This document shows positions 4,130-53,030 of a DNA stretch of 56,187 nt, one piece after another (the first letter of the stretch is position 1; every line of letters starts with the position of its first letter). The DNA is from Prorocentrum cordatum (lineage: Eukaryota). The notes under the pieces are model-generated. The model searched no databases, was not told where the DNA came from, and saw only the letters and a program-made list of their open reading frames with translations. Position numbers and translations under genes: made by a program. Location: contig CAUYUJ010000105.1 of assembly GCA_963575745.1 (NCBI GenBank), forward strand, positions 62,001 to 118,187, read 5' to 3'.

Positions 4130-6159
4130 ATGAAACGTTCAAGCTCCGACGCGGGCGAGAACGTCTCCCAGAGGTCGCGCGCATTTGCTCCGCTGATTGC
4201 CTCGTTTAAAGCGTCGAACGCGGCAGTGATCGGCATTGCGCGCTGCTTGAAGGGGCAGCCAGAGATCATTGACGACGTGACGAAGTGGAGGATCAGAAAG
4301 GCTAACGATGAATTCGCATCAGAATTTCTGGATGCGCCAATACAGCTGAACTCGGCAAGCGGCACGGCCTTCGACATGCCCGTCGTCAATATCGCCAGCC
4401 TCCTTCAACACTGCGCTTCCGAATGTGCGAGCTTCAGAAATTTGCTGCCCACAACTGTAAGAAAATTCCCGTGCTCCCCAGCGGCGCCGCGGGACTTCAC
4501 ATTGTACTTCGATGAGTTCGTACCAGGCAATGTATTGCGGCAAGATAACAAACGCAAGACGCTCTCGTTTTACGGGAGCTTCCGCTCCTTCGGCCCTGAC
4601 GCGGTGTCGTGCGAGGACGCTTGGTTGCCTCTCGCTTTTGTTCGCCACACAGTGGTCGATAAGGTTGCGGGCAAGATGTCTGGAGTCGTTCGCCAACTGT
4701 TGCGACGACTTTTCATTGGCCCAGACAGCGCGTCGCAGAGGGGCGTCCTCATTGATGGCATTGGGCCTGGCGGCGCCCCTGCGCTCATCTTCTTTAAGCT
4801 GTCGAACCTGCTTTGCGACGAAGATGGCGCTAAAAATGCCTTGTGCTTGAAGGGCGCCGCCGGCGTAATCCCTTGCGCTCTGCGCAAGAATGTGCACGGC
4901 ATATGCGACCGCTCGGAGCCCCTGCTGTCAGCGCATGACAGGACGAGCACGCTGGTGCCCATTTCGTGCTCTGATCCCAACCTGTTCGACGCGCGCACCG
5001 CGGAGGACCTGTTCTTCTCCGCGGACCTGCTCCAGCGTCTGCAAGCCACGCTGCCCAAGGGCGCGTTCGAGGAGCAATGCAAGATGCACGGCGTTAATCA
5101 CGCGCCAGATGGTTTGCTATTGGACGCTGAGCTTCGCCAGCACGTGTCGCTGGACATGCACGCGTGCGACCCAGCACACTGCGTGATCATAAATGGGATC
5201 GCTCAGATTGAACTGAGTGAGTTTCTGTGCCGCCTCGCTGCCGTCGGCCTGACGTTGGAGCGCTTCAGGGACATCGCCAGCGCGCAGTGGCAGATTTGCA
5301 GCTTTTCAGCGACCAGCGGCATGCTGGACGCCAACGGGCTTTTCAGCGACCAGCGGCAAAAGCACTTGCAGACCAGCAAGAAATACAGCGCCAAGGCGAG
5401 CGAGATCATCGCGGCCGTTCCGCTCATTCGGTACGCTCTCGATGTACTTACCGCTGGGTCCGCTCAGTTCAAGCTGGACTTTGCAAAGGAGCTGGCTTCC
5501 TTTGCCGCGCTGGCCAAATCACTGTTTCTGTATTTGCTGGCCAAGAGAGGCGCGGCTGTGGCAGATGCTTGGGCCGTGGCGCTCCGCAACCACGCCGTGG
5601 CTTTCGAGTCTGCGTGCGGTGATTGCGGCATGTACATCCCGAAGTTTCATTTCTGCAGGCACCTGCCGCGACAGGTGCTCAGGGATGGGTTCGCACTTGA
5701 TACGCTTGTGACGGAGAGGTACCATAAAAAATCACTGCGGATCGCTGAATTCATCGACAACACGCGGTGCTTCGAGAAATCATTACTGACCCGAGCTATT
5801 GCCCTTCAGTGCCACGATGTGCAACATAATGTTTCATTTGGGAATGCCTTGGTGTGCGGCATCAAATGCAACGACGTCATGAACGTTTCGAAGGTCGTTA
5901 TTGCGGGTGGCTCTCGCATATCAGCTGGAGATATTCTGCGTATTGGTGAGAAGCGCTATTTATCCTCGGCGGTGCCGAGGAAGGCGGCAACGTGGCGTTG
6001 ATTGTTCAGGAGTTGCATTTTATTTGCCAGGCGTTGCCCAGCGCCTCGCGGCGGCGAAAGGACGACGCCCCGAAGTTCGCGCAGTGCGACTCCTTCATGG
6101 CACAGCCTCTCTGGACACATGAGGCTTCTGGAACGCTGTTAGTGGTGGATATGGCATAA
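4130..6159 (+). pseudogene. CACTA/Mirage/Plavaka (CMC)-like DDE transposase with a C-terminal frameshift
   Basis: ORF 3899-6001 (likely ATG 4130) shows the motif order typical of CMC/Plavaka transposases: LYFDEFVPGN, WLPL, LCDEDG..K..L.LKG..G..PCxxR (degenerate CxxC), DPAH, PKFHFCRHL..Q...DG......TERYHK. Coding-like sequence continues in other frames from about 5955 to a TAA at 6159. Confidence 0.72.
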
Positions 6160-6279
6160 GTACCCGCAGGCGCCGAAGTGCCTGCAAGCGTCGAGCGCTG
6201 GCGCGATTGCACTTGCCAGAGCATTTCCTGAGATTTATCGGCGCGACCGCTTCGCGAGGCTACCCAAGGGGAGACAAGG

Positions 6280-6860
6280 GGGCGAGGAGGAGGAGGAGGA
6301 GAGACAATCGGAGCGGCGCGACCGCTTTGCCACTTTGCGAGGCTATCCAGGGGGGAGCGGGGGGAAAGGAGGAGGAGGAGGAGGAGGGGGAGGAAGGAGC
6401 AGGAGGAGGAGGAGGAGGTGGAGGAGGAGGAGGAGGAAGAGGAGGAAGAGGAAGAGGAGGAGGAGGACGAGGAGGTTGAGGAGGGCGAGGACGAGGAGGA
6501 GGACGAGGAGGAAGAGCGGTGCGTCCGCTTTGCCCCTCATGCCCCGATCCTTCGCGCGCGATCGCTTTGCGAGGCCATCCAAGAGGAAGAGGAGGAGGAG
6601 GAGAAGGAGGAGGAGGAAGAGCAGGAGGAGGAGGAGGAGGAGGAGGAGGGCGAAGAGGACAAGGGGGAGGAGAACGAGGAAGAGGAGGAGGAGGACGAGG
6701 AGGAGGAGGGGTAGGAGGAAGAGGAACAGCGGCGCGTCCGCCCTGCCCCTTAAATTCTGATTCTGGGAATTACCGTTTTGCAGGTTATCCAAAAGGAGGA
6801 CGAAAAGGAAGAGGAGGAGGAGGAAAAAAGGAGGAGGAGGAGGAGCGGTGCGACCGCTTT
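6280..6860. repeat. (GAG/GGA)n low-complexity tract interleaved with AGCGG-N5-CCGCT motifs
   Basis: Purine-rich trinucleotide runs punctuated by GAGCGG...CCGCTTTGCC at 6312, 6515 and 6844, with an imperfect copy at 6728. Confidence 0.9.
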
Positions 6861-8099
6861 GCCTTTTCAGCTTCTTGGTTCCCTTCAGTTTTGCCGCTGC
6901 CATTGTCATCTCAGGGGCTACATGGACGCCTTGCGCGGGCCCAGAGCGCGACAAGAGGTTGTCATCCAGGGATTCGAACGCATTTGCCCTCCCTCCTCCT
7001 TCTCCTTAACCTCCCCTCCCCCGTTGGAGCGCAACGTTCTGGGCGTGATTAAAAAGGAAAGTTCTGAAGCGGCCAAACCGCTGCACTGTGCAACTTGCAA
7101 TATAAAAGCGGTCTGCCGCTGCGGAAAGTCAGGGGAAGAAGGAAGAGAAGCAAGTTGGTTTGTGATTTTTCTCAGAATTTGCATTTTTTTCATTTTCACT
7201 ATTTGTTTCATCATTTTTCACGATTTGTCGTTATTTTTATTATTATCACTATTTAACACTATTGTTTTCACTATTTTTTCATTATAGTTTACTATTTTTC
7301 TCATTTTTTAATACATGCTGATAGGATCCTATAGTGCACAATAGATATATTTAGTGTTTTACAGAGCCCCACCCGTCAAAGCACCCCCTCACCTCCGACG
7401 TTTTTGGGTGTTTCACGCCGGGCGTGGCGGTCGCCAGGCCGCCCTCGCCCCTTCCTGCGTGGGAGTTACATAAGGGGGAAACGCTCGCAAATTTTTCAAT
7501 CGGCGTTTCAGGGTGGTCTACGCCGTGCGCAGAGAAAGTGGCGTTCGTTGGCATGCGAATGGTGCCCGACGCGACAGCGGCCGTATGCGTCCGCACAAAG
7601 ACGTTGCTGCAAGGGGGAACTCTCGCCTATTTTCAAATTTGCGTTGCCGTCGTTTTCGAGAGGACAAAAGAAGACGAAAGCGCCTTCGTGGTTTGCCACG
7701 GTACGAACGTCAAGGTAATTATTACACCTGACGCGGCCAGGTACTTTTATATGTGCCCGTAGTGCTGCAGTCCAGGGGTCCAACGCGCGGGCGCAGAGAG
7801 TCGGGTGCGCGAAGCTGCGCCAACCTAGCCGGTTCCCAGGAGTGGGCGCGAAGCGTCACCCAAACATAACGCTCCCAGCTTACTCGTCCCATCTCGGTGA
7901 GTGGGCACCGCGGTCGGAGGTCGCGCAGCCAGTTCGTGTCCAGCGTGGCGAGAGCAAGTCGGCAGTGGTACTGGGAAGCGACGCATCTAGCATTGGTCGC
8001 CCTGCAAATAAATGTTTACAAGTCGCGTGTGCGAACCTGCGCGGGGGGCGGCGGCGCCGGCATGCACCGAAAAGATTCGAAACAGAGTGCAACAACGAC

Positions 8100-10004
8100 A
8101 TGGCATCAGGGGGTGGCAGTCGCGTGTCGATAGAGAGACAAAATCTCCAATCGGTTCAGACGTGGCTGTGTGGTGAGGGCGCGTTTGTGTGGGTGTATGA
8201 AGCGAAGGACGTGCAAGAAGTAATGACAGCCGCGTCGCGGCATAGATGGAAGCTTGGCGACAACCACGGCGTGTGCGCAGGAGCAGTTCTATGGATGTCT
8301 ACTAAACACGTTGCTCGCGTGGTCAGCGGGGGAGATGTGCTCGCGCGCGATGCTGTAGAGGGAGAAGCAGACCATGCTCCGCGGCTGCGTTCTTCGGTTG
8401 GGGGTAGCACCTCGGTACCATCATCCGATATCGCGCAGGCGTGGCCGACCTGCGCGGATGGTGCACGTGAAAGTGCCGATGTGGCAGGGGAAGAGCGGCA
8501 CGATACGGGAGGGGGCTCAACCGTGGAGCACATTCAGGCGAAAAGCCCAAACGAGAGCACAGTGTTGGAGCTCGTGCGACCCGGTGTGTCAGAAGCAGAG
8601 TTGGCGGCCGCGTTGCATGGTGACTCGGCTCAAGTCATGCTGGAGGACGGGGCCTGGGCGTGCGTTCAACATCGGATAAAGGGCATGCCGAACATTGGGA
8701 ATTCGTGTTTTGCAAACGCCGCATTGCAAGTGTTACTGCGCCTGGGGCCCATTCGGCACGCGGTGTTGCATCATCGACGCGGACGCAGCGTCCGACGGCG
8801 TCATCGATGCGGTGTGTGTGCATTGGCACAGCAGGCGGATCTGATGGGCGCAGCCGTGGGTGACCTTCCTGTGGATAAAAGCGAACAAGTACCGGGAGTT
8901 CGAGCGGTGCGCGATGGGTTGTTCCAGCGCGGTCGCATTGATGACTTTAGGGGCACTCGCCAATGCGACGCCAGCGAGCTGTGGAGCGCCTTAGTTGATG
9001 CTATCTGTGCTGCAGAGTCGAGTGCGTTGGCAGGCATGGGAATCCCGGCGCAGCACTACACACTAGTAGACGGGTCCATACTGGGAAGCACCATCCGTCA
9101 AAGGCGGTTCTGCGGCGGATGCGGTTGGGTGTCGGATGTTTACAGACGAGAACGATCCATGGTAATCCAAATGTGGGAATATACGGATATGTTGGGACCA
9201 GTTGGTCTTGAGCATCTCGTGGCGTTGGAATCCACGCGAGCCCAGCGCGGTTTGCCATGCCCGCATCGACCCGCCTTGCGAGACGGAGAGGTGTGGCATG
9301 GGTGCCCAGGCCCGTCGCAAACTCACGACGTGCCATCGGAGACACCTGCCAGATTCCTTGTTGTGGTCCTGAGCAGAAAAATGGCGGACGGAATGACTCG
9401 AGTGAATTCCCGCGTGATCGCCCCCAGGGCGTTCGAGTGGCCTGGCGCGTCGGGCTGGACATGCCAGCTCCACGGCGCGATTTGCCATCTGGAGCACCCA
9501 TCTCATTACGTCGCCTACTTCGACTGCCCCGGCGTCGGTGTCGCCAGGTTCGACGACAGCGAGTTGGCGCGGATGGAGTTCAAGGAATTTGCAGAGAGCT
9601 CGAAGAATCAGAGAGACATTGCCCTTGTGGCGTTTTCCAGGCACCGAACGGAAGCAGTCGTGCCGACAGATGGCGCCACGGAAGCGGCGTCGTCAACGGA
9701 AGGGCCGCTGTCGTTGGGCGACAGACCCCCAATGTCGCCATCAACAACCGACATGGAAAAAGCTACGCACGAGCTGGGTGGAGCGAGCCGTGGACATGCA
9801 GAATCCGTAGACGACGGCGGTGCTGCCAAAACGTCGCTGGGAAGCGAGATGGCTGTGGGCCGCGTCGATGCAGAGTCTACATCAACGCGCGCGCCATCGA
9901 GGGCAGGAGATGGTGCACATGGTGCGTCTCCGTCTTTGCATGGCGCTCCTGTCGGGAACCGTCAGCTGGAGGGGTCGCAGGGGCCGCCGAGGGGACGCGG
10001 GTGA
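8100..10004 (+). CDS. N-terminal part of the Helitron polyprotein containing a ubiquitin-specific protease (peptidase C19/UCH) domain, about 8682-9640
   Basis: Cys box GMPNIGNSCFANAALQVL (Cys at 8706), QCDASELW box, CxxC finger (FCGGCG), His box LHGAICHLEHPSHYVAY and FDDS. The catalytic C/H/D residues are all present. Confidence 0.8.
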   Translation: MASGGGSRVSIERQNLQSVQTWLCGEGAFVWVYEAKDVQEVMTAASRHRWKLGDNHGVCAGAVLWMSTKHVARVVSGGDVLARDAVEGEADHAPRLRSSVGGSTSVPSSDIAQAWPTCADGARESADVAGEERHDTGGGSTVEHIQAKSPNESTVLELVRPGVSEAELAAALHGDSAQVMLEDGAWACVQHRIKGMPNIGNSCFANAALQVLLRLGPIRHAVLHHRRGRSVRRRHRCGVCALAQQADLMGAAVGDLPVDKSEQVPGVRAVRDGLFQRGRIDDFRGTRQCDASELWSALVDAICAAESSALAGMGIPAQHYTLVDGSILGSTIRQRRFCGGCGWVSDVYRRERSMVIQMWEYTDMLGPVGLEHLVALESTRAQRGLPCPHRPALRDGEVWHGCPGPSQTHDVPSETPARFLVVVLSRKMADGMTRVNSRVIAPRAFEWPGASGWTCQLHGAICHLEHPSHYVAYFDCPGVGVARFDDSELARMEFKEFAESSKNQRDIALVAFSRHRTEAVVPTDGATEAASSTEGPLSLGDRPPMSPSTTDMEKATHELGGASRGHAESVDDGGAAKTSLGSEMAVGRVDAESTSTRAPSRAGDGAHGASPSLHGAPVGNRQLEGSQGPPRGRG

Positions 10005-10370
10005 GGCGAACGAGGCGCTGGGGGAAGCAGAAAGAAACGTTTTGCGAGTCGTATAGAACGAGCGCGACAGAGCCCACACATTGCTCGTCCATGATTTGTG
10101 GCCAGTCGCGCAGAAACGAGCCCGAGGCAGGCGCTGGGGCGACCGCGGGCGCAGCAGCAGCCAGCAACCTCAACGAGCCAGTGCAGGACGGTGCCGCAGT
10201 GGGTGCAGTCCCAGAGGCGGATACAACGCAAGAGATGTTTTTTTTGCAGCGCGCGTCAACCCAGCGCCGAATGATCCCCGACGAGCACGGGAAGACGCGG
10301 TGGCAACGGCTGCGAAGCTGTTGCGGGAGATCCCTACTGTGCCCGCGGATCCTGAAGACCTTAATATACA

Positions 10371-12237
10371 GTGGGGGGGGCAGCTTTGGTCGAGAACGAC
10401 GCGGTTGAACTGCCACCCCTTCACTGTGCTTTCCGAGGTTGCCCCTGGACTGGCGTAGACGAGTCTGAGCTTCTCAGCCATGTCGGCGTTGCACACAGCG
10501 ATGTCGTGCAGCCGATCGCGGACATGTATTCGCCCGCGCGCTCGCTGCACAAGCGAGCACTCACTGCTTACAGTGAAGTCGTCGCGCACGCCGTGCGGCA
10601 AGGAGCTCCAATATCGTCGCATGCGACGCATCGGAGAAGTCTGAAAGCACATGCAGAAACAGTGACACAGGAAAAGGTAGCATCGCCGATCTGTTCCATG
10701 TGCGGCTGTTCGTTTCCGTGGGTGTCGGGACGGAAAAATAATGATGCATCGTGGGGGCGAGTGTTTGAGAGCGACGCGCGGGATGGCAGTGGACTGACGC
10801 ACATGGGAGCAAGGTCTATGTGAGAGGTGCTTCAGGAATTGAGCCTCGCGGCATATGTGAGCCAGTGCAGGTATGAAGACGGGAACGATAAACTCTACCT
10901 CCAGAAGCACATCGACGAGTTCGACGACTGGACGGTGAATGTATGGTGCGCGTCGTCTATTGGAGTGCCTCGGGGCTACCTGGAGTTGGTATGTTGTCCA
11001 GAGGACCAGCGGTGCAGTGCTGCATGTCGGGCAAAGCGAGAAGTCTGTACTCAATGCGAGGTTCTGTTATGTCGGGAGTGCTTTGAAGGTGTATATACTC
11101 CGAAACGGGCGTGGAACGAAACGTCCCACGCGATGGTTCCAGTGATGCCTGCGCGATGCTTGGCGAACGATATGATGTCGTTGTACTGTCCGAAAAGCAT
11201 GTACGACGAGGGGATGGCCGTCATGGAGATGATTTGTTGCAGCCGGCGCATAACTGCCATGATCTGTTTCTCGTTGGAGGTGAAATGCCCGAATGTATTT
11301 GATTCCGTCGCTGGGATGCAGGAGACGCGAGTCGCGGCTCGGGGGAATGCAACCTCGTCCGCCCTCCCATGGCAGGGCATCTTGTCAGAGCTTCGGAGAA
11401 GGGTAGCGTCAGGTGAGCAGACGGGTGGTGCGCCTGTCCCGCGCGTGGGCCACGATCTCTCCCATGTTGTGCACATTTTGTTAAAGGTGAGTGACGCGAC
11501 GTCAAAGGATACCTTGCCGACATTCATTCATCAAGCCACCGCGCGGCGGGACGTGGTGAAGCACCACATCAAGAAGATGATCGCTAACGGGCATAGGGCG
11601 TACATGCACGTGGACGCTGCAGCAGTAGATGCTCGCGCCGAGCAACTTCCAGATAATGGCGTCCCGCCCGAGTTTGTGCGGTTGCTTCCGCGTGACAATC
11701 ATTTGGGTAAGATCATGGTGCAAAAGAAATCGGCGCCATCGGATGCGAAGCAGGCGACGGTGCAAGACGCTTGCGACGACATGGACCGAATAATTCCGAA
11801 CATGGTGGTCATGGAGAGATCATCGTTCAACGAGGTAGATGAAAACGCTATGACGGAAACAGCTTTGCAGCACATGACGCGCGGCGTTCATGAAGAAGGC
11901 ACGGACGGGCATTGTGGCGGTGGCGAAACCCCGCGTGCAGAAGAACGTGCGAGAGTTCTGTTCGCGTACGAAGCATGGCGGGATCATTTTGTCGCGATGG
12001 CTACCAGTCTATTGAACGACCAACACAATGGCCGCGTACGATGCACATGCAAAGGATTGTCGGAAATCGCGAGGCTCGGAGAAGCGTCGCAGCGGCACAA
12101 CCTGGTGCTCATGGACGTGAACGGACGGGGGACGTGGATGGGGAAAAGATGCGGTTGCGTCTCGTGGTGTCTCCAGGCACGGCCATGATGAGGCAGTTCG
12201 TTCCGTGGTTCTTCGGCGTCGCTTTTCCGTTATGTGC
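10371..12237 (+). pseudogene. Helitron pre-Rep region: C2H2/Cys-rich fingers and a DUF6570-like segment, with an in-frame stop and frameshifts
   Basis: HCAFRGCPW..LLSHV...H, ICSMCG, CCPEDQRC, CTQC..LCREC, LANDMM, ARGNAT..LPW and HQA..RRDVV...GH.AY. There is a TGA at 10821, and the frame shifts into MRQFVPWFFGVAFPLC. Confidence 0.65.
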
Positions 12238-12258
12238 TTTTTTCACTTTTTTTTTTTT

Positions 12259-12306
<48 letters not shown>

Positions 12307-12309
12307 CTT

Positions 12310-12362
<53 letters not shown>

Positions 12363-12481
12363 CTTTTTTTTTTTTTTTTGTTTTTCATTTTTTTTTTTTT
12401 TTTTTTTTTCTTTCTTTGTTTTTTTTTATTTTCACCCCCCTATTTTTTTTCTTTTTTTTTTTTTTTTCTTTTTTTTTTAGT

Positions 12482-12522
<41 letters not shown>

Positions 12523-12679
12523 CAAGTTATTTTTTTTTTTTTTTTTTTTGTTTTTTTCTTTTTTTTTTTTTTTTTTTTTTTTTTGTTTTCTCTTTTTTTT
12601 TTCTTTTTTTTTTTTTTTTTTTTTTACTTTTTTTTTTTTTTTTTTTTTTTTCTTGTTTTTTTTCTTTTTTTTTTTTTTT

Positions 12680-12734
<55 letters not shown>

Positions 12735-12747
12735 CTTTTTTTTTTTT
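12238..12747. repeat. About 510-nt noisy poly(T) tract interrupting the Helitron coding region
   Basis: Almost pure T with sporadic other bases. The flanks join into a continuous-looking peptide (GVAFPLC / FKF...GFDLPEW). Confidence 0.95.
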
Positions 12748-15111
12748 CAAGTTTGAGTAGCAGGCTTTGATCTGCCAGAATGGTCCGACGAAGTAGCCGA
12801 CACCGCCGTGTCGGTGAGGCACCCGCGTGGACTTCCGCTGGGACACGAATCATGACACGCCGCGTGGAATCTCAGCTCAGACGTGACTGGCGTTTCGGAT
12901 TCACGATGTCGTCCTTGTTGTACCAAAGCGCCTTAAATACGTCCCGAAGCATGCGACTGTTTGCAGATCATGAGCAGAGGGAGGACGAATCGGGTCGCGA
13001 CTTTACGTGTATGGAGGAGGCTGCCATAAGCATAGTAGCAGCACTGCGAGGCACGTGCCCAGATCCAGGCACTGGACAACGGCGCGCAGTGAATGGGGAC
13101 GTATCGAAGTTGAAATTCGTCACATCACTACCGGAGACCGCGCAGAGAATGGCGCGGCAAGCGCAGGCCATTAATAAGAAGATCGCAGGATCACATGAAG
13201 TACGTACAATTATGCCGTACGATGCCCACGCTGGTCGGGCGGTTCAAGGCGTCCCTGTATTTTCTACGATGTCCCCAGATGAAAGGCACAATCTCGTCAT
13301 GGCACGGCTGAGTAGATCGCGCCACAAGGACCCAGTCAACAGGCATCGGGTGCAGGAACAACAAGGCCCGTCGAATGGCGGATTGTTCGAGCCCGATTTT
13401 TCCAGCGCGTGCGGCGTGCCAATCGAGGGCGGGGCGGTGGAGGGTGACGCTGACGATGTTAACATGGCAATACCCATGGAGGTTGCATGCCAAAACGTAG
13501 CAGAAGCCACGGTGCGATTGGAGTGCTTGGCACGGGGTCCTCTGGCGTGCGTCGACGGCTTTCGCACAGTCGTAGGGCTGGTGCTGGAGCACCTGTTCGG
13601 GATTCGGTGGCGTCCGCGGTGTCCCGATTGTGATTGCGCAGATCTGGCAGGTAGTAACGCGAAACTGGTGGGCGGCTGCGCGGGGCGAGTGGACGGTGTG
13701 TACGGCTCCATAGAAGCTCAGAAATCCGCGGGCGGTTTACACCTGCACGCTCAGTTGTTCGTCCAATGCCTCCATCAGCACACGCCGCTGCACGAGATCA
13801 TTCGCCGTCCCCCTGACGAGCTTCAGCGTTTGACATGCGGCCACGCAGCATTTAAATGGGTGGCGTCGCGACAAGTATACGCAGATGTGGCGGAATGGCA
13901 GAGGCAGAAAGAGCAAGTCGAAAAATACTGGCCTGCGTATAAGGGCACGGAAGACTTCATTCAGGCAGAACCGTATCTGAAGCAGAGCGATGCGCAGGTG
14001 CAGCGAACCCTAGAGGGGACTCAAGAGCTCAGCTCAGAGGAGCGGGAGCGCTTCGAAATGGTGGTTGCGAAAGTAATTGAAATGTGTGCAGAGAGGCCAG
14101 GGATATCGTCAGAACCACGTACACAAGTGGAGCCATCGGCACTTTAAATTTGCGCCCTTGTTACACTGTCAGCGAGATGACGACCCATTGAAGTGCAAGA
14201 GCTTTTTCCCTCGGACGACATGGCTGGTGGAGAAGACCGTGCTTTTGTGTCCAGGCTTTCTGAAAGCCCGCTCCATGCCGCGTGGAGGGCGCAGGGATAT
14301 GACTGGATGCCTACGCGGGCCGCAAAATGAAGATAACCTGAACGGGACATTGCCTGCATTGTTGAGCGGCGGCCTTGGATTGAATTTCAACTCCGATGTC
14401 CAGCTCCCGTGCAGGTTCCCAATTTTGGAGCAGACGCACGACGGGGACGCATGCGCAGAGAGGTGTTGGGACGGCGCGGAGGTAAAATATATCGTGCTCG
14501 CGGCACAGCGCGCGCAGAACGCCCAAGCAGGCTATGCGTGCGACTATGGGGCGAAGCGTCTGGCGTCGTCATTCAACGAGGTGAAAGAGTGTAAGAAAGG
14601 ACACCATGCGTTGGCGGACAAAGTGAATGGGCGTAGCGCCTCCTACGTGGCGCACCGCCACATCACGCGGCTACTCTCGGATATGTACGGGAAAGGGATC
14701 GTGCGGTCCGCGCAAGAGAGTGTGAACCTGCGCGCGTACTCGGATGTGAGAGACGTGACAGCTGCGGAGAGTATTAAGGCGTCGAGGACAGCAATGGTCC
14801 CTCGGTTTGACATGGTGAGGATGGTAGAAAAGGAGTGTGGCGTGGCGCCGGAGCGATCGGACCCCGGCAGAGTTCATGTGCAACGCGATGGTAGGCGCGC
14901 AAAGAGGCCGCGCGCAGTCTCAAAGAATCCAGCATTCCTGTACGGCATGAGACCGTTGGATGCTAAATGGGCCCCAGAACTGCGGTACCTTTCTGTAAAT
15001 GATTTGTTTCCGATATTGGCGTATCGAAATGACAGAGTGGCCCACGAAGATAAAGAAAAGGAAAGAGGTAGCAGAGGAGGTCGAGCAAGACACGGAGGGC
15101 GAGGAGGATGA
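12748..15111 (+). pseudogene. Helitron HUH Rep endonuclease domain, frameshifted
   Basis: Motif 1 PVFSTMSPD, motif 2 YGSIEAQKSAGGLHLHAQLF (HLH at 13740-13748), QNHVH, CKSFFPR, NSDVQ, and motif 3 GYACDYGAKR (Tyr 14533 and 14545, Lys 14554). Confidence 0.85.
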
Positions 15112-16028
15112 ATGTCAGTATCACGCAATACTCACGGCGAGCGGCAAGACGAAGGTCCGGGAGGCACGGCAGAGGGGAGTGGAAGAAGCACCGCTTTTGG
15201 CAGGGATCGATTGTGTCATTCGCGGCGACGGTTGCGACGCGTGGGTAGCGTTCCCTGACGTTGAAGGCATGGAAACGACACGGCACAAGTGGGTGTTAGT
15301 TCGAAACGAGAGTCCGCGGAACCCGAGCTTTCACGGTGCACCACAGCCGAAGCATCGGCAAGGGGATGCAGATAGGAACGCGCTCATCTTGATGGCGTAT
15401 TTTCGATCGTTCACTCTGCAAGACGCAGATTTGGACGGGGTACCGAGGGTGCCAGAGTGGTGCACTGGTGAGAAGACGCTGGCACAAGCCGCACGTGAGT
15501 GGTTGGATGGCGGCCTTCCTTGCGAGGAATCGAAAATGTATGCGCAGAATTGCATGAGAGTCGTCGACGTGCGTCCCGAGGGGGATGACGCTGGGAGGAA
15601 GCACGACGATGACTTGTTCAGCGACGAAGATGTGGGCGCCGACGAGCTCGACGAAGGTGTCCGGCGGCGCGTGCACGTTGGGGGCACGCGCTTAGAGGAC
15701 GATAAAAGGGAAACGACAGGCGTTGTTGCAGAGGCGCGTCGCCTGAGTGCTGAAGCCATGGCGTCATCGACGCGTGTGTGGGGCCAAGAGGCGGGCGGGG
15801 ATGGAAGGAACCACAGAGGAGCGCGGGCGAGAACAGACGGGCGCGTAGAGGTGCCAGAGGCAGAGTTGAAGCGACGGGAAGCGGAAGCTCGGGCCTCTCA
15901 GACAAAGATGAAGGGTGACGGGTTGGAGGTGTGCGAAATTGAGGAAGGCAAAGTGAGACGGGTTCCTGCAGGCGGCGCTGGCGAGTTGCGGCGGGCTGCG
16001 CGGACCTAGCAGCGGACACGTCGTAGAT

Positions 16029-17790
16029 ATGAATGAGAAACATAGAGAAGTCGCAGGGAAAGTCATAGACCGGATGATCGCTGAGTGTCAGGAAGACGAG
16101 CGTACAATCGGCAGTTCGGAGCCGTTGCTGTGGACGCTGCACGGAGGCCCAGGCGCAGGGAAGGGCTTTGTGGTCGAGACCTTACGGGACACGTCTTCGA
16201 AGGAGTCATGGGCTGGGAGCGCGGTCTGGACTTCCAAGTGGCTGCGTTGCAAGCCACGAGCGCGCCCAGTCTGGATGGGCGCACGTTGCACGCCGCGTTT
16301 GGGATGACTCCGCGCAGCGCCAGTACGGAATCTGGTAAGAAGCGCGGAGAGCCAGGTGCAAAGAAAGTAGAAGCAGCGAGGCGAATTCAGCAGTGGCGTT
16401 GGCTCATCATCGACGAAATCAGTATGGTCAGCGCAAATTTTCTGGCAGAGCTGGATGCGCACTTGCGGTCTGTGATGTCGGCAGCGAGGCAAGGGAAGGT
16501 GGGCGCCAATAAGGTGGACCGTCCGTTTGGAGGTGTCAATGTGTATAATCTGCGAGGATTTCTACCAGTTGGAACCTCCTGGCGGAACTCCATTGAATGC
16601 GATTCCGACGTCGTGGGTACGGAAGGCGAGGCAGTATGCGCCAGGCGCCGAAGAAGATCATGGTCAGTACATATTCTGGGGCGAGGGGTCGGGGTCCGTG
16701 GCGGGGATGACGGAACTGGTAGAGTGCAAGCGTTTGGAAGAGAAGGACGAGTGGTTCCTGGCAGTACAAGATGAGTTCCGACGGGGAGCCCTGACCGAAG
16801 GGACGCACCAGTTTCTGCATGGGAAACCTACAGATGTTCCAGGGTCTTGGTTGGATGACCAGCCAATGTGTGGTTCGCTATCCTGCATGCAGAACGTGGC
16901 CTCTATCGCAATTGACAACGGGCTGGAGTGTGAACGGTGTGCAGAGGAAAGAAAGCGTCGATGTCTCGTAGCCACCAGTGCCGCAGACGAAGGGTTCGCA
17001 CTTCCACAATTTGTCGAAGCCACTGCCATTTATCCGAATCAGGATGTGAAATGCAAGGTAGCGCTGCAGCGGGCCGTGGACTGGGCTGCGTTCCGGAAGA
17101 AACAGTTTTCGTGGGCTTATGCGCGGGATAAGGCCACGCACGCTACGTGCCAGGAAAGGCCGTACACCTCAGCAGACAAAGTGCGGTGGCTCGGATACCA
17201 CGACAAGGCCTGTGCAGACATGCCTGGATGGTTACCGCTTGCTGTGGGCACGCCAGTTGTACTGACGGTCCATTTGGACAGATCAGAGAAGCAATTGCTA
17301 TGAGGGTGTCGCGCGACGATACATTCATGGTTGGTAGATGAAGAAGAAGAAGACGTGCAAGACGTGTCGTCGAGAGTCCTGCGTAAGATGCCGAGGCAAA
17401 TCGTGTTGGACTTTCACACAGAAAAAGTTGACGCTGAAAGGGATGCCGGGACCCGGGCTGCATCCCCTAGTCCCTCGTGCTCGGACGTGGCATCTGGACT
17501 CGCATCGAAAGAAGCCCGTGCTAGGAGTGAAACGGAGACAGTTTATGATTTCGCCTGGGCTGGCGTGCACGGTGCACGCAGCGCAAGGGCGAACGCTCGA
17601 CGCGGTAATAGCGGACTTGGAGGAAGGCAGAAACGTGAGTTGGATGTCGAGTTACGTGGCCATCACGCGCGTGAAGACGCGACAGGGTCTGCTCATATAT
17701 CGGCCATTTTCGAGACAGCCGCATACGCAAGGAGAACTGGACGGCACGAGGTTGTTGTTACAGAAGCTGCGGGGCGAAGCGTTACCGTGG
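16029..17790 (+). pseudogene. PIF1-family (SF1B) helicase domain of the Helitron, with several frameshifts
   Basis: Walker A GGPGAGK (16143-16163), TLHAAFG, Walker B IIDEISMVSA (Asp 16412), PFGGVN, DFYQLEP, RRQF...ACTVHAAQGRTLD and YVAITRV. These are spread over ORFs 16029, 16085, 16527 and 17338. Confidence 0.92.
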
Positions 17791-19059
17791 CCCGACATCG
17801 AGGAGAGGTTGATACCGCGAAAAACATGCGGGAAGTGTCGCAAGGTGAAGGAGAAAGCTGACTTCAGCACGACAGAGTTCGGCGCGAAGTCGGGGCCGAG
17901 CTTCTGCTGCGAGTGCACGAAGATGTTGAAGGGAGCAGGGGGGAAGTGGTGCACGACTTGTGACCACTGGGCCGAGATGGTCTCCAGAGTGGCAGAGGCC
18001 GAACCCGAAAGGAGCAGAGTGTCCGTGCGGACCAGCAAATGCGATAGGCGCGCAGGCCCATCATCCAAGAGGAGGTCGCGGAAAGAGTCTCACAAGTGGC
18101 AGGAGAATGTACGAGACCAATTCAAGATCCGTTGCGCTGATTGCTGTGAAATCCTCAAGACAGAGGCAGAAATTTCGGCGAACCAGTACGCGACGAAGGG
18201 CGCAGGGGAGAAGCTCTGCAAGAAGTGCGCAGGGAGAAGGAAAATCGGATGGAACAAGTGGAGTCAATCCCAGAAGGAAAAAGAGTGGACGAATGAAACG
18301 AACACTGCTCGACGAAATGCACGCCAGCAACAGCCGCTGAGGTGTTCGGCGTGCCCGAAAGACGCCGACGGAAGAGGGTGGGAATTCGAGAACACGACGC
18401 ATCTGACAAAATTGCAAGTTCAGAAATATTATTGCATGGGCGCGGACCATAGGCCAGTGAAATGCCGCGACTGCGACACGGATCACAAGCGATCCCGGTT
18501 GTTCAGGCGTTCCGCGTGCCCGACAGAAGCAGATGGGAGAGGCCGAGAGTTCACGGACAGGACGCATCTGACGGATAAGCAAGTGAAGAACTTCTTCGAG
18601 AAGGGCGCGGGCCATCGCCCAGTCATGTGCCGCACGTGCCAGGAAGAACGCAATCAGCCGCGAGCGCTCACGTGCTCGGCGTGCCCGAAAGAAGCATATG
18701 GGAAAGAGCAAGAATTCATGGACAGGACGCATCTGACATATTGGCAAGTGAAGCACTTCTTCCAGAAGGGTTCCGGCCATCGCTCGGTGTTGTGCCGAGC
18801 GTGCCACGAGCAAAGACAGGTAGCAAAGAAGTTGGAATGCTCCGCATGCCCCCGGAAAACGGACGGATCCAAACCTACGTTCACGGACGCCAGTCATCTC
18901 TCGAAAGACCAGAAGAATTATTATTTCCTCCGAGGCACTCCTGCGGTGTGCGCCACATGCCATAAGGCGGAACGGGCCCCTCCGAGAGAACCGCCGAAAC
19001 GCCCGGCGGAGGCGATCGACGAGCACGGCGGGAAACAACGCAAGTTGCAGGGAATCTGA
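17791..19059 (+). CDS. C-terminal Cys-rich Zn-binding array of the Helitron protein, including four 55-aa repeats
   Basis: Multiple CxxC pairs. CSACP-type repeats start at 18343, 18508, 18673 and 18838, an exact 165-nt period. Stop TGA at 19059. Confidence 0.8.
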   Translation, partial: PDIEERLIPRKTCGKCRKVKEKADFSTTEFGAKSGPSFCCECTKMLKGAGGKWCTTCDHWAEMVSRVAEAEPERSRVSVRTSKCDRRAGPSSKRRSRKESHKWQENVRDQFKIRCADCCEILKTEAEISANQYATKGAGEKLCKKCAGRRKIGWNKWSQSQKEKEWTNETNTARRNARQQQPLRCSACPKDADGRGWEFENTTHLTKLQVQKYYCMGADHRPVKCRDCDTDHKRSRLFRRSACPTEADGRGREFTDRTHLTDKQVKNFFEKGAGHRPVMCRTCQEERNQPRALTCSACPKEAYGKEQEFMDRTHLTYWQVKHFFQKGSGHRSVLCRACHEQRQVAKKLECSACPRKTDGSKPTFTDASHLSKDQKNYYFLRGTPAVCATCHKAERAPPREPPKRPAEAIDEHGGKQRKLQGI

Positions 19060-19079
19060 CCGCGAGTCGCGCGCGCGCC

Positions 19080-21007
19080 GTCTTCGGGGATCTCTGGTGC
19101 CGTCGTCAGCCCCTCGTGTCCCGTCTGACGCCCTCTTGGGCTGTTGAGAACGCACTCGTGGAGGATTCTTGGACGTCTTGGAGCGTTCTGTGGGGGCTCG
19201 GAACCTTCGACGAACGCATCTCGGAGACCCTCGGGGGGGCTCGTGGGGACTTCTTTTGCCGTCGAAGACGCCTCCGAGCGTGTTTTCGGGCCACCTGGAG
19301 CCCATGTGGAGCTTGGAGGCCTCTCGGAGCGCTCCAGGGGCGCCTCTGAACCCGTCTGGGGGCCCTCCAGGGATATGTGGGGCACCCTGTGAGGCGATTA
19401 TGGGACCGCTTGGGACTGGGTTGGGGGGCCTCGTGGGCCGTCGGATGCGTCGGAAAGCCCCGAAGCTGAATTTACGAAAAATGCGCGTTTCACTAAGAGA
19501 ATGGGCTAATTTCTGTCTCGGAACCTTCTGGCAACGCATCTCGGAGGCCCTGGGGGGGGGGGGGGGCTCGTGGGGGCGTCTTCTGCCATCCAGGACGCCT
19601 CGTGGCCCGTCTTTGGGCCAACTTGGGCGTCTTGGAGCGCTCGTTGGGCGCCCCAAACCCTTTGCGAGGCCTCCAGACGAGTCCCTACACGATTTTCCAA
19701 GGTTGCGCAAGATTTGTCAAATGTTTTGTGCAATTTTCGGGGTCTCCTGGTGCGCTCTTGGAACCGTTTTCGGAGCCCTCGGAGGCCGTCGTGGACGCCT
19801 CGGAGCCCGTCTTGGGGCCTTCCAGGGATATGTGGGAGACCCTCTGGGAAGCTTCTGGGACCGTCTGAGACTGGGTGTCGGGGGGCCTCGTGGGCCGCCG
19901 GGTGCATCGGAAAGGCCCGACGCTGAATTTATGAGAAAGTGCGTCTCACGAAGGGGATGGGCCAATTGTTCCGTCTCGGAGCCCTCTGGACACGCATCTC
20001 GGAGGCCCTGGGGGAGGGGGGGGGAGCTCCTAGGGGCGTCTTCTGCCATCCAGGACGCTTCGTGGCCCGTCGGTGGGCCAACTTGGGCGTCTTGGAGCGC
20101 TCGTTGGGCGTCCCAAGCCCATTGCGAGGCCTCCAGACGAGTCCCTACACGATTTCCAAGGTTTTGCACGACTTGTCAGAAGTTTTGCGCGATTTTCGGG
20201 GTCTCCTGGGGCGCTCTTGGAATCGTTTTCGGAGCCCTCTGATGCCGTCGTGGACGCCTCGGAGCCCGTCTGGGGGCCCTCCAGGGATATGTGGGACACC
20301 CTGTGAGGCGCTTATGTGACCGCTTGGGACTGGGTTGGGTGCCCTCGTGCGCCGTCGGATGCGTCGGAAAGCCCCGAAGCTGAATGTATGAAAAATGTGC
20401 GCTTCACGAGAGGAATGGGCAAACTTTTCCGTCTCGGAGCCTTCTGGAAACGCATCTCGGAGGCCCTGGGGGGGGGGGGCTCGTGGGGGCGTCTTCTGCC
20501 AGCCAGAGCGCCTCGTGGCCCGTCTTTGGGCCAACTTGGGCGTCTTGGAGCGCTCGTTGGGCGCCCCAAACCCATTGCGAGGCCTCCAGACGAGTGAGTC
20601 CCTGCACGATTTTCCAAGGTTGTGCACGACGTGTCAGAGGTTTTACAAGATTTTCGGAGCACTCCGGGAGCGCTCTCGGAACCGTTTTCGGAGCCCTCTG
20701 AGGCCGTCGTGGACGCCTCTGAACCCGTCTGGGGGCCCTCCAGGGATATGTGGGGCACCCTGTGGGGCGCTTCTGGGACCGCTTGGGGCTGGGTTGGGGG
20801 CCCTCGTGGGCCGTCGGATGCCTCGGGAAGCCCCAAAGCTAAATGTATGAAAAATGTGCGTTTCACCAAAGGGAATGGGCCAATTTTTCCGTCTCGGAAC
20901 CTTCTGGAAACGCATCTCGGAGGCCCTGGGGGGGGGGGCGCGTGGGGGCGTCTTCTGCCATCCAGGACGCCTCGTGGCCCGTCTTTGGGCCAACGTGGGC
21001 GTCTTGG
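19080..21007. repeat. Tandem array with a unit of about 458 bp (about 4 copies)
   Basis: The anchor CGCATCTCGGAG recurs at 19215 (partial unit), 19535, 19993, 20451 and 20911, giving periods of 458, 458 and 460. Confidence 0.92.
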
Positions 21008-21036
21008 GCCGATGAACCCCAAGGGGTCGGCGGATT

Positions 21037-25792
<4,756 letters not shown>

Positions 25793-26010
25793 GGGGGGAG
25801 CGGCGACTGCGACGATGACGACTCAATCGGACAAACGTTTCACACACGCTTACAGGGCCGACAGACTCTCGTTGACCCCACCTCCTGGTACCCATCTGTG
25901 TTTTTCCCATCCATCCTGTGGTGTTGGGTCATCGTTTTGAAGAGACGGTCCCCGCGTTTCTCCTTCATCCTCCCTCCTCCTCCTCCCCCTCCTCCATCCT
26001 CCTTGCGTTT

Positions 26011-28350: not shown

Positions 28351-29132
28351 GAAGATATTCACAATTGCGGTACCCACAACTGCAGATGGTTGGGTCCCTC
28401 GCAAGGATACTTTTTTACAAGGGGCAGGTTTTGGGTTCAGAGAGGGCCCCTGGCCCCCGAACCAGCACAACATCGGCTCCCGCCGGACGCTTCCGCACTA
28501 TTTGTTCGAAGTCGCGCTCTCTCGCAGGCAGGATATCCGCACAATGTTTCCAGGAATCGCGCCCCCGCGCCTTCGGCACTCATGAATTACGCTTTCGCTT
28601 GAGTCTTCTCCAGATTTGCTTGGGAATCGCGCTATCGCTCGAGACTTCCTCGCGATGCATGTTGGGCTGACGCTTCAACGACCCGCCCGCTCGACCCGGC
28701 CGTCTGGGCCCGCCCGCCCGACCCGCCTGTAGGGTCCACCCGCCCCACCCGCCCGTCTTGGCTTAGCCGCTAGCGCTCCTGCGCCTGACCCCCTCTCCTG
28801 CTAATCTCTCTCGTGCTCCGTCCTTCTCCCTCCCCCTTGTCTCCTCCCTCCTCCCACCTTTCTTCTGTTTTACGGGTTGCGCCAAGTAAGTGCACGTGGC
28901 AGTTAAGGAAGACATATACCAAAGTGACCCCCCCCCCGCGACCCATCCGCGACCCACCCCGTGACCCATCCGCAACCCAGCCGCAACCCACCCCGCGATC
29001 CTGTCGCGACCCACCCTCGACCCACCTTGCGGCCGCCCTCTTCACTCTTATTCGCAACTGCGGGGTGCGACGTCAACTTTCGAAGAGCTGGACCGTCGAA
29101 AGTGTAAGTTCATGCATTTCTTCTTCCCCCAG

Positions 29133-30291: not shown

Positions 30292-30402
30292 GACCTCATC
30301 CTCAGCATCATCCTCATCCTCTCCTCAGCCTCATCCTCATCCTCATCCTTCTCCTGATCCTCATCCTCATGCGCATCCTCATCCTCATCCTCATCCTCCG
30401 AG

Positions 30403-33466: not shown

Positions 33467-33502
<36 letters not shown>

Positions 33503-52812: not shown

Positions 52813-53030
52813 GTCAGGGGCGATGTTAGGGGGGATAGGCTCAGGGGGAAGGTGCATCGACCCCAAATCGCCCATTCATCGCCAATATGGACCCTATAGC
52901 CCACACCACCCAGGAGCGTTGCGGATTTGCTATCGGGAGCCTATCGCCGATCTATCGTCGATGTATTGTCGATTCCAGGTCGATGTTTTCCCCCGAGCCG
53001 GCCCGTCCCCCCTGATGTTGCCGTCACGAG

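What the first reader, a model, noticed from the sequence alone, without database searches (positions are those of the whole stretch)
8100..19059. Helitron polyprotein carrying a USP (peptidase C19) deubiquitinase ahead of Rep-helicase
Seen: on one strand and without recognisable introns, an intact-looking USP catalytic domain (Cys box, QxDAxE, His box, FDD), then Zn fingers, HUH Rep motifs 1-3, a PIF1 helicase and a Zn-repeat tail, about 3,400 codons once frameshifts are bridged. Established: some Helitrons/Helentrons carry OTU-like cysteine proteases or an AP endonuclease. A C19/USP-fold protease is not the commonly described cargo, and no AP endonuclease is evident here. Inference: a distinct rolling-circle family that may use its own deubiquitinase to counter ubiquitin-dependent silencing or degradation, or to process its polyprotein.
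Basis: partly seen in the sequence, partly recalled or inferred. Interest (0 to 1): 0.8.

Follow-up and report, generated by a model that had tools for sequence, protein, structure and literature searches.

The report
Dinoflagellate Helitron carrying its own deubiquitinase
This is a worn-out copy of a many-copy rolling-circle transposon (Helitron2-type) from a dinoflagellate-like genome whose giant transposase gene begins with a ubiquitin-removing USP protease, an arrangement already catalogued for this transposon group but seen here in a new host group and a new domain order.

Summary
On the + strand, about 7920-19059, one collinear coding region reads: OTU-fold module, USP (C19) domain, C2H2-like finger, DUF6570, HUH Rep, PIF1-like helicase, CxxC zinc-repeat tail.

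The window copy is damaged. It has about nine frame switches, in-frame TGA stops at 10002 and 10821 (plus a stop at the ~14062 junction), and a 501-nt poly-T tract inside conserved coding sequence.

The USP belongs to the element and is not a neighbouring gene:
- Relatives P0138/P0140 (54% identical) carry USP, finger and DUF6570 in one open frame.
- In run X1, 2197 contigs at 80-100% likeness cover the stretch, USP part included.
- Other copies differ by small indels at several of the window's frameshift sites.

AlphaFold and Foldseek confirm a USP fold, and the catalytic Cys, His and Asp are present. In a 43-row tree the USP falls in a divergent 16-row group that holds every RepHel-linked USP found, including forms with the USP at the C-terminal end.

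Novelty is limited. HELIANO (2024) already lists Pfam UCH among domains stably carried by HLE2 Helitron-like elements. Helitron VTD deubiquitinases are shown active.

New here: the dinoflagellate host, the in-frame N-terminal position, and the OTU-fold plus USP pairing. Termini and enzyme activity remain undetermined.

The parts
7920..19059 (+). Whole coding region of one decayed copy of the element (about 3,700 codons once frames are bridged). The element's termini were not determined.
   Evidence: Collinear tblastn map of relatives. Profile of the N-terminal module. Stop TGA at 19057-19059.
7920..8400 (+). N-terminal module with an OTU-like papain fold. Candidate Cys in KCLQ (8010-8021) and candidate His in KHVARV (8304-8321). 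It begins upstream of the ATG at 8100, and there is no in-frame ATG back to the stop at 7716-7718.
8538..9707 (+). USP (peptidase C19) catalytic domain. Cys box 8700-8720, QCDASE 8961-8978, His box 9501-9521, FDD 9546-9560.
   Evidence: Pfam UCH 32.8 bits. USP36 match. AF2 pLDDT 88.3 and Foldseek USP hits at probability 1.0. Motifs kept in P0138 and in fragments at 41-85% identity.
9708..10380 (+). Poorly conserved linker with frame switches 3>2 (about 10000), 2>1 (about 10240) and 1>3 (about 10380), and a TGA at 10002-10004.
   Evidence: tblastn of P0138/P0140. Other copies lack 2 nt at 10238 and 10373, both in 8-base homopolymers.
10422..10496 (+). C2H2-like zinc finger (HCAFRGC...HVGVAH).
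   Evidence: Read from the translation. Conserved in P0138 and P0002.
10821..10823 (+). In-frame TGA inside sequence that P0138 reads through.
11145..11612 (+). DUF6570, which HELIANO proposes as a marker of HLE2 elements.
   Evidence: Window scores 22.5 bits against a 24.3 cut-off. The homologous stretch scores 32 bits in P0138 and 34.9 in P0139. The window is 60-63% identical to them there.
12247..12747 (+). Poly-T tract (501 nt, 86% T) interrupting the conserved motif DQFEPWYFGVAF...RHRR. One other copy skips 12226-12849.
   Evidence: Joint 12225>12850 in X1.
12816..14970 (+). HUH Rep endonuclease. Motif 1 VFSTMSPDE 13257-13283, HUH HLHAQ 13740-13754, YACDYGAKR 14533-14559. Frame switch 3>1 near 14050.
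   Evidence: 40 relatives at E<=0.001 with 34-42% identity, 33 of them carrying PF14214. Residue-level alignment with P0004.
16032..17970 (+). PIF1-like SF1B helicase. Walker A GGPGAGKG 16143-16166 has Gly where relatives have Thr. Walker B LIIDEIS 16403-16423. Frame switches at about 16190, 16544 and 17415.
   Evidence: Pfam PIF1 E 1.8e-8. tblastn map. Alignment. Indels in other copies at 16188, 16545 and 17422.
17827..18966 (+). C-terminal tail of about six CxxC...CxxC zinc-ribbon-like units, followed by the stop at 19057-19059.
   Evidence: pattern. A 165-bp tandem at 18438-18770. Only a weak Atlas lead to the Stc1 domain. No Pfam hit.

Best explanation
The region is one decayed copy of a multi-copy autonomous Helitron-like element. 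It is of the HLE2 (Helitron2-like) type and has no AP endonuclease. The host is probably a Prorocentrum-like dinoflagellate.

In intact copies the single intron-less gene encodes one giant protein: OTU-fold module, USP deubiquitinase, C2H2-like finger, DUF6570, HUH Rep nuclease, PIF1-like helicase, zinc-repeat tail.

Rep and helicase carry out rolling-circle transposition. This is inferred from the established Helitron mechanism (recalled, not read here).

The USP domain is an old, retained component of the element. It most likely acts as a true deubiquitinase that strips ubiquitin from the transposase itself or from host factors it needs, protecting them from ubiquitin-dependent degradation or silencing. 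That is the role proposed for the OTU and VTD domains of other Helitrons.

Shown here: identity, architecture, fold, multi-copy state, and linkage of the USP to the element. Inferred: enzyme activity and its target.
For: Architecture and linkage:
- Pfam UCH, DUF6570 and PIF1 lie on one strand.
- Relatives map collinearly with abrupt frame switches.
- P0138 (1325 aa) and P0140 (1431 aa) have UCH 204-502 and DUF6570 1082-1238 in one ORF. They are 54% identical to the window in the USP and 60-63% in the finger-DUF6570 part, but only 33% in the linker.

Multi-copy state:
- In run X1, 2197 contigs were laid on 6000-21000 (214/595/830/558 by likeness class), with cover in all 30 bins.
- Other copies differ by indels at 10238, 10373, 12140, 16188, 16545 and 17422, which are my frameshift sites.
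- USP-ORF fragments at 41-98% identity come from several sources.

USP competence:
- The Cys, His and Asp boxes are kept in all rows that cover them.
- The AF2 model has pLDDT 88.3, and the top Foldseek hits are solved USPs.

Old element-borne lineage:
- In a 43-row tree, the window with P0138/P0140 has support 100.
- They lie in a 16-row side of a split with SH-aLRT 97.
- That side holds all RepHel-linked USPs found: P0142 (DUF6570-Rep-PIF1-UCH, 4575 aa), P0089 via P0159 (Pif1_2B-Exo_endo_phos-UCH), P0071 via P0153, and P0077.
- 0 of the 27 rows on the other side carry Helitron domains.

Precedent: Helentron VTD domains cleave Ub-AMC and K48/K63 chains (PMC9741609, passages). UCH is listed in HLE2 (PMC11417382, passages).
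Against: - No full-length intact copy was found. A search for proteins of 2506-5000 aa with a close USP returned none, and P0140 stops where the window's poly-T begins. One ORF from USP through helicase is therefore inferred by joining overlapping evidence.
- The closest Rep relative, P0002, has no USP similarity. None of the 40 Rep relatives lists PF00443, so the USP is not universal in this Helitron group.
- The window copy is itself non-functional.
- Termini, target site and any empty site are undetermined.
- No activity data exist, and no target can be named from sequence.
Confidence: 0.6

Rival explanations
1. The USP is passenger DNA: a host gene fragment captured by the Helitron and carried along without any role in the element's life cycle.
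For: Helitron-like elements are known for gene capture, and HELIANO treats the extra domains as captures (PMC11417382). Close Rep relatives lack the USP.
Against: The catalytic motifs and fold are kept across copies down to 41-54% identity, while the adjacent linker has decayed to 33%. The USP lies in frame with the transposase in P0138/P0140. It sits on a long stem inside a divergent group that is RepHel-linked in at least 7 of 16 rows, not among cellular USPs.
Confidence: 0.15
2. The USP is a processing protease. Like USP-fold viral papain-like proteases (recalled analogy), it cuts the giant polyprotein into working pieces.
For: The protein is very long and multi-domain, with low-complexity linkers. 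Viral deubiquitinases often also process polyproteins (PMC9741609 introduction).
Against: There is no L-x-G-G site anywhere in P0138 or P0140. The only LRGG in the window (near 8035) lies inside the OTU-fold module and is not conserved in its relatives. The LHGG in the helicase is the Walker A loop.
Confidence: 0.1
3. The USP ORF is a separate host gene that merely lies upstream of a Helitron insertion on the same strand, as expected in one-directional dinoflagellate gene arrays.
For: In the window the two parts are separated by stops and frameshifts. Run X4 covers Rep-helicase but hardly the USP.
Against: The same order occurs in one open frame in P0138/P0140. The USP part is as repetitive as the rest in X1. 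An X1 contig bridges 9920-10635 (table 8). Homology of the linker to P0138 runs through the frame switches.
Confidence: 0.03
4. It is a host gene family derived from a Helitron (a domesticated RepHel-USP) and no longer a mobile element.
For: No termini or target-site signature were found. A fragment 98% identical appears in a protein set labelled as a eukaryote's predicted proteins.
Against: There are thousands of contigs at graded divergence and decayed copies like this one. The catalytic Rep and helicase motifs are those of active elements.
Confidence: 0.05

Closest known systems
HLE2 Helitron-like elements with a Pfam UCH domain (HELIANO, Li et al. 2024, PMC11417382; passages and Table S11 row read)
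   Same: RepHel with DUF6570 and a PF00443 domain stably associated with the element.
   Different: HELIANO reports UCH enriched in subgroups c and d, mostly from lungfish and axolotl, and counts it among 17 domains encoded in ORFs other than RepHel's. Here the host is dinoflagellate-like, and the USP is in frame and N-terminal to DUF6570-Rep-Hel. The words dinoflagellate and Symbiodinium do not occur in that paper's text or held supplement. Whether the USPs are the same lineage was not tested.
Helentrons with VTD and/or OTU deubiquitinase domains (Erven et al. 2022, PMC9741609; passages read)
   Same: A cysteine deubiquitinase domain inside the RepHel ORF, sometimes two different ones in tandem. 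The proposed role is to protect proteins needed for transposition.
   Different: Those elements carry an AP endonuclease and VTD-class enzymes in animals. Here there is no endonuclease, and the enzyme is USP-class, preceded by a module that is OTU-like only by fold.
C-terminal USP forms found here: P0142 (DUF6570-Helitron_like_N-PIF1-UCH, 4575 aa) and P0159 (Pif1_2B-Exo_endo_phos-UCH, 2486 aa)
   Same: USP of the same divergent 16-row group fused in frame to RepHel.
   Different: The USP is at the other end of the protein. The RepHel is only distantly related to the window's.
Symbiodinium microadriaticum RepHel noted by Heringer and Kuhn 2021 (PMC8788227; one passage read)
   Same: A dinoflagellate RepHel without an AP endonuclease, structurally Helitron2-like, branching outside Helitron2 plus Helentron.
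   Different: That passage mentions no protease or deubiquitinase domain. The relationship to the window was not tested.
Canonical Helitrons (HLE1, for example Helraiser; recalled)
   Same: HUH Rep with two tyrosines plus a PIF1-like helicase, transposing by a rolling circle.
   Different: HLE1 elements lack DUF6570 according to HELIANO. Pfam Helitron_like_N does not reach the window's Rep pieces.

Membership tests
Helitron-like element (RepHel rolling-circle transposon) | HUH Rep domain with motifs 1-3, including two tyrosines | tested here: met
   VFSTMSPDE, HLHAQ and YACDYGAKR align with the matching motifs of P0004 inside its PF14214 hit. 33 of 40 Rep relatives carry PF14214. The window pieces themselves get no PF14214 hit.
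Helitron-like element (RepHel rolling-circle transposon) | PIF1-like SF1B helicase C-terminal to Rep in the same gene | tested here: met
   PIF1 E 1.8e-8. Collinear map. Walker A and B present, with Walker A altered in this copy.
Helitron-like element (RepHel rolling-circle transposon) | Repeated, diverged copies in the genome | tested here: met
   2197 contigs of run X1 at 80-100% likeness over the stretch.
Helitron-like element (RepHel rolling-circle transposon) | Defined left and right terminal sequences, a 3' hairpin and a target dinucleotide | tested here: inconclusive
   No convincing terminal inverted repeat or hairpin was found in 6500-21100. No second full copy was available to align.
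HLE2 / Helitron2-type | DUF6570 N-terminal to Rep (HELIANO's proposed marker) | tested here: met
   The window scores 22.5 bits, under the 24.3 cut-off. The homologous, 60-63% identical stretch passes in P0138, P0139 and P0140.
HLE2 / Helitron2-type | RepHel falls in the HLE2 clade in a phylogeny with reference elements | not tested
Helentron | AP endonuclease (Exo_endo_phos) C-terminal to the helicase | tested here: not met
   No such hit in any + strand ORF of 7719-20242 at E up to 10, nor in the flanking ORFs scanned. The tail consists of CxxC repeats instead.
USP / peptidase C19 | Profile match above the curated threshold | tested here: met
   PF00443 32.8 bits against 23.9.
USP / peptidase C19 | Catalytic Cys box, His box and Asp/Asn | tested here: met
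   NSCFANA, SHYVAYF and RFDD are present. They are invariant or conservatively replaced (D/N) in P0138 and kept in the fragments that cover them.
USP / peptidase C19 | USP fold | tested here: met
   AF2 pLDDT 88.3, pTM 0.88. Foldseek probability 1.0 with TM 0.63-0.78 to USP21/18/36/46/1/12/7.
USP / peptidase C19 | Ubiquitin isopeptidase activity | not testable with these tools
   Needs a Ub-PA or Ub-AMC assay.
OTU deubiquitinases (for the N-terminal module) | OTU fold | tested here: inconclusive
OTU deubiquitinases (for the N-terminal module) | Sequence-profile match to OTU | tested here: not met
   0 of 17 members hit Pfam OTU at E up to 10. A profile search of PDB sequences gave 0 hits.
OTU deubiquitinases (for the N-terminal module) | Conserved catalytic Cys and His | tested here: inconclusive
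   The Cys of KCLQ is in 9 of 9 rows and sits at the N-end of a helix. The His is in 15 of 17 rows and sits at a strand start, but the two nearest relatives (P0042, P0045) have Arg. No acidic third residue was identified.

The most novel reading that the evidence does not exclude
Helitron-like elements of the HLE2 group carry their own deep, divergent lineage of USP deubiquitinases. It is separate from cellular USPs and can sit at either end of RepHel. In this dinoflagellate family it is paired with a sequence-unrecognisable OTU-fold module, giving two deubiquitinase-type domains in tandem ahead of a rolling-circle transposase. On this reading, antagonising ubiquitin is a core and repeatedly re-solved requirement of HLE2 transposition (OTU, VTD and USP being interchangeable), not incidental cargo.
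Probability: 0.4. Interest if true: 0.6.

Novelty: new variant of a known kind. Interest (0 to 1): 0.4.

Why it matters
Deubiquitinase domains recur in rolling-circle transposons, but only the VTD class has been shown active, and nobody knows what they act on. A USP-class enzyme fused in frame to RepHel, with intact relatives available for expression (P0138/P0140), adds a third enzyme class with well-developed assays and inhibitors. That could make the question of why Helitrons need to remove ubiquitin experimentally tractable. It also begins to describe Helitron-like elements in dinoflagellates, whose huge repeat-rich genomes are poorly annotated. The gain is incremental, because the Pfam-level association of UCH with HLE2 elements is already in print.

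Tried and rejected
Searches and tools that gave nothing usable:
- No whole genome is held for the window.
- The metagenome contig scan with the USP alignment gave 13 loci (L001-L013) that match only the generic Cys box (20-30 residues). None is a close relative.
- A search for 2506-5000 aa proteins with a close USP gave none. The tool itself calls this weak evidence.
- The look-up of sequencing runs listed no RNA holder, so nothing can be said on expression from runs.
- In one search, run X4 gave almost no cover over 7503-11009. A part without cover is not evidence.
- The X4 joint 6302>17336 sits at AGA repeats and was treated as spurious.
- Earlier-findings look-ups by sequence, place and words returned nothing.

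Features looked for and not found:
- No spliced-leader relic and no Rfam family in the window.
- No convincing terminal inverted repeats or hairpins.

The N-terminal module and the tail:
- ESM Atlas gave no usable hit for the N-terminal module. For the zinc tail it gave only sub-threshold Stc1 leads.

Ideas considered and dropped:
- I considered using codon positions of the variants listed as a selection test. Only 40 of 2229 variants are shown, and most are private to the window copy, so I dropped it.
- I considered that the frame switches were introns. I rejected this because the relatives' residues continue without gaps across each switch.
- I considered the poly-T tract as an intron. This stays unresolved, but it interrupts a conserved motif and one DNA contig lacks it.
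Full report
**What is in the sequence**

The window is GC-rich (about 58%) and full of long simple and tandem repeats. No genome is held for it.

On the + strand, stop-to-stop frames between 7719 and 19059 carry these parts in order:
- A USP domain: Pfam UCH, 32.8 bits against a cut-off of 23.9, nt 8682-9581.
- A C2H2-like finger at 10422-10496.
- DUF6570 at 11145-11612, 22.5 bits, just under the 24.3 cut-off.
- A Rep region with motif 1 (13257-13283), HUH (13740-13754) and YxxxY (14533-14559).
- A PIF1-like helicase (E 1.8e-8), with Walker A at 16143-16166 and Walker B at 16403-16423.
- A tail of about six CxxC...CxxC units, ending at the TGA at 19057-19059.

The USP reading is solid:
- The Cys box, QCDASE, His box and FDD are all present.
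- The best solved-structure sequence match is USP36 (E 9e-8).
- An AlphaFold model built on a 36-row alignment has pLDDT 88.3 and pTM 0.88.
- Its top Foldseek matches are USP21, USP18, USP36, USP46, USP1, USP12 and USP7, at probability 1.0 and TM 0.63-0.78.

**State of this copy**

Eight relatives were laid on the window by tblastn. Those that cover the Rep-helicase part align collinearly from 10225 to 18231. P0138 adds the USP from 8502.

The reading frame changes at about these places:

| Position | Change |
|---|---|
| 10000 | 3>2 |
| 10240 | 2>1 |
| 10380 | 1>3 |
| 14050 | 3>1 |
| 15000-15090 | 1>2 |
| 16030 | 2>3 |
| 16190 | 3>2 |
| 16544 | 2>3 |
| 17415 | 3>1 |

The relatives' residues run on across each switch. 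These are therefore small indels and not introns.

Further damage:
- There are in-frame TGA stops at 10002 and 10821 and a stop at the 14062 junction.
- A 501-nt poly-T tract (12247-12747) interrupts the motif that relatives read as DQFEPWYFGVAF...RHRR.
- Walker A reads GKG where relatives have GKT.

Four of the indel sites lie in homopolymer runs. Some may therefore be assembly errors, but the stops and the poly-T tract are not of that kind.

**Is the USP part of the element?**

Four lines of evidence say yes.

1. A search restricted to long proteins found P0138 (1325 aa, 54% identical), with Pfam UCH at 204-502 and DUF6570 at 1082-1238 in one uninterrupted ORF. Its cluster mate P0140 (1431 aa) is the same. 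Identity to the window is 54% in the USP, 33% in the linker and 60-63% in the finger-DUF6570 part. That is a domain-wise pattern of constraint.
2. Contigs of four public runs were laid on 6000-21000 at 80% likeness or more.
   - Run X1 gave 2197 contigs (214/595/830/558 in the classes 99+, 95-99, 90-95 and under 90), with cover in all 30 bins, the USP part included.
   - Other copies differ by indels at 10238 (-2, 6 contigs), 10373 (-2, 5 contigs), 12140 (-2), 16188 (+A), 16545 (-1) and 17422 (-1). These are my frameshift sites.
   - One contig skips 12226-12849, which holds the poly-T tract. One 1131-nt contig bridges 9920-10635.
3. The representative search returned short fragments of the USP ORF at 41-98% identity from several sources. 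One is labelled Prorocentrum cordatum, and two come from a EukProt set labelled Pyramimonas sp. CCMP1952.
4. Named Rep relatives come from Effrenium voratum and Polarella glacialis. The host is therefore most likely a dinoflagellate, probably Prorocentrum-like.

Against a universal association:
- None of the 40 Rep relatives lists PF00443.
- The closest one, P0002, has no USP similarity.
- No protein of 2506-5000 aa with a close USP was found.
- P0140 ends exactly where the window's poly-T begins.

A single frame from the USP through the helicase is thus inferred from overlapping evidence. It has not been seen in one sequence.

**Where the USP comes from**

I built a tree of 43 near-complete USP domains (quick IQ-TREE, SH-aLRT support).
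- The window groups with P0138/P0140 (support 100) on a long stem.
- That group lies within a 16-row side of a split supported at 97.

That 16-row side contains every RepHel-linked USP I found:
- P0142, a 4575-aa ORF reading DUF6570, Helitron_like_N, PIF1, then UCH at the C-terminal end.
- P0089, whose cluster mate P0159 reads Pif1_2B, Exo_endo_phos, UCH.
- P0071, whose mate P0153 begins with helicase-end sequence matching P0142 3912-4033.
- P0077, likewise.
- More weakly, P0131, whose mate P0165 sits on a contig of the same length (17,208) as the RepHel P0011.

That makes 7 of 16 rows with direct linkage.

On the other side of the split, 0 of 27 rows carry Helitron domains. They score 120-240 bits on Pfam UCH and have cellular partners such as MYND, A20, CID, La and HEAT.

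The sample is the hit list of one query and the tree is unrooted. This is a lead towards an element-borne USP lineage and not a proof.

**A missed domain**

Fourteen more distant short proteins, plus the near relatives P0042 and P0045, align with the first 100-130 residues of the ORF. The alignment continues upstream of the ATG at 8100 into the same frame, back to about 7920.

Evidence on what this module is:
- Pfam, a PDB profile search and the ESM Atlas do not recognise it.
- The listed Foldseek rows are likewise all OTU-type or TYMV PRO, but weak (E 0.28-2.3).
- A Cys in KCLQ (9 of 9 rows) sits at the N-end of a helix. A His (15 of 17 rows) sits at the start of a strand, as in OTU enzymes. 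The two nearest relatives have Arg at the His position.

I read this as an OTU-like fold of uncertain catalytic state. This copy has no in-frame ATG between the stop at 7716-7718 and 8100.

**How it most likely works**

Rep and helicase are the rolling-circle transposase. The mechanism is taken from established knowledge of Helitrons (recalled).

For the USP I commit to a true deubiquitinase that protects the transposase or the host factors it needs from ubiquitin-dependent degradation or silencing. My estimate for this mechanism is about 0.5, given that the identity of the element is about 0.9.

Evidence for and against the alternatives:
- The retained catalytic residues and fold, the in-frame position and the precedent of active VTD domains in Helentrons support a working deubiquitinase (PMC9741609).
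- Polyprotein processing is less likely. P0138 and P0140 contain no L-x-G-G site, and the window's LRGG is not conserved.
- The passenger-DNA and adjacent-host-gene readings are argued against by the conservation pattern and by linkage in other copies.

**Comparison with what is known**

- HELIANO (PMC11417382; passages and one supplement row read) lists UCH PF00443 among 20 domains stably included in Helitron-like elements. It says UCH is almost exclusively in HLE2 and enriched in subgroups c and d, which come mostly from lungfish and axolotl. It counts UCH among 17 domains encoded in ORFs other than RepHel's. It proposes DUF6570 as an HLE2 marker. The words dinoflagellate and Symbiodinium do not occur in its text or held supplement.
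- Erven et al. describe OTU and VTD domains in Helentrons.
- Heringer and Kuhn (PMC8788227, one passage) note a Symbiodinium RepHel without an endonuclease.
- Full-text searches were run for Helitron with 'ubiquitin-specific protease', 'ubiquitin carboxyl-terminal hydrolase', 'deubiquitin', 'dinoflagellate' and 'Prorocentrum'. Judged from listings, abstract starts and the passages I read, none describes a USP-bearing dinoflagellate Helitron.
- Repbase and Dfam could not be searched.

**Verdict**

The element is a new variant of a known kind. What is new is the host group, the USP fused in frame at the N-terminal side, and its pairing with an OTU-fold module. Its termini, its target site and any enzyme activity remain open.

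Noticed in passing
window 7920-8400 (+): A conserved module with no sequence-level family assignment is shared with 14 more distant short proteins of unknown context (P0065, P0080, P0083, P0088, P0091, P0099, P0107, P0110, P0111, P0112, P0127, P0132, P0135, P0137). Its model resembles OTU deubiquitinases by fold. It may mark the N-termini of other mobile elements of the same host group.
   Followed up: partly
window 12247-12747: A 501-nt, 86% T tract sits inside a conserved coding motif. At least one other copy in run X1 lacks 12226-12849. It could be a microsatellite expansion, an insertion or an odd intron; this is unresolved.
   Followed up: partly
window 19341-21007: A 459-bp tandem repeat (3.6 copies) lies directly downstream of the ORF. 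In all four runs it is several times to tens of times deeper than the element, so it is an abundant satellite in its own right. Whether it belongs to the element's 3' part is unknown.
   Followed up: partly
window 21062-25793, 26008-28146, 32709-35650: There are very long simple and tandem repeats: (GTA)n of 4.7 kb, a 99-bp tandem array of about 2.1 kb, and (TATG)n of 2.9 kb.
   Followed up: no
window 17827-18966 (+): The C-terminal tail has about six CxxC...CxxC units. The ESM Atlas gives only sub-threshold leads (0.86-0.87) to clusters where a minority carry the Stc1 domain PF12898. Pfam does not list it. This stretch is also the deepest part of the element in run X1.
   Followed up: partly
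protein P0050 (3205 aa): One predicted protein consists of ten tandem, nearly identical USP domains. P0053, P0055, P0056 and P0086 have three each. These look like cellular USP genes in tandem arrays read as one frame.
   Followed up: partly
proteins P0142 (4575 aa) and P0159 (2486 aa): These giant single ORFs have the USP at the C-terminal end of RepHel. In P0159 it follows an AP endonuclease. The first 1500 residues of P0142 have no Pfam assignment.
   Followed up: partly
window 52900-55821 (+) and 28789-30354 (+): These are long open frames with ankyrin repeats (E 3e-11) and a weak SPRY match (20.8 bits, under its cut-off). They are probably host genes on the same strand.
   Followed up: no
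window 16143-16166: Walker A of the helicase reads GGPGAGKG, with Gly where relatives have the Thr/Ser that follows the Lys. This is probably another inactivating change in this copy.
   Followed up: no
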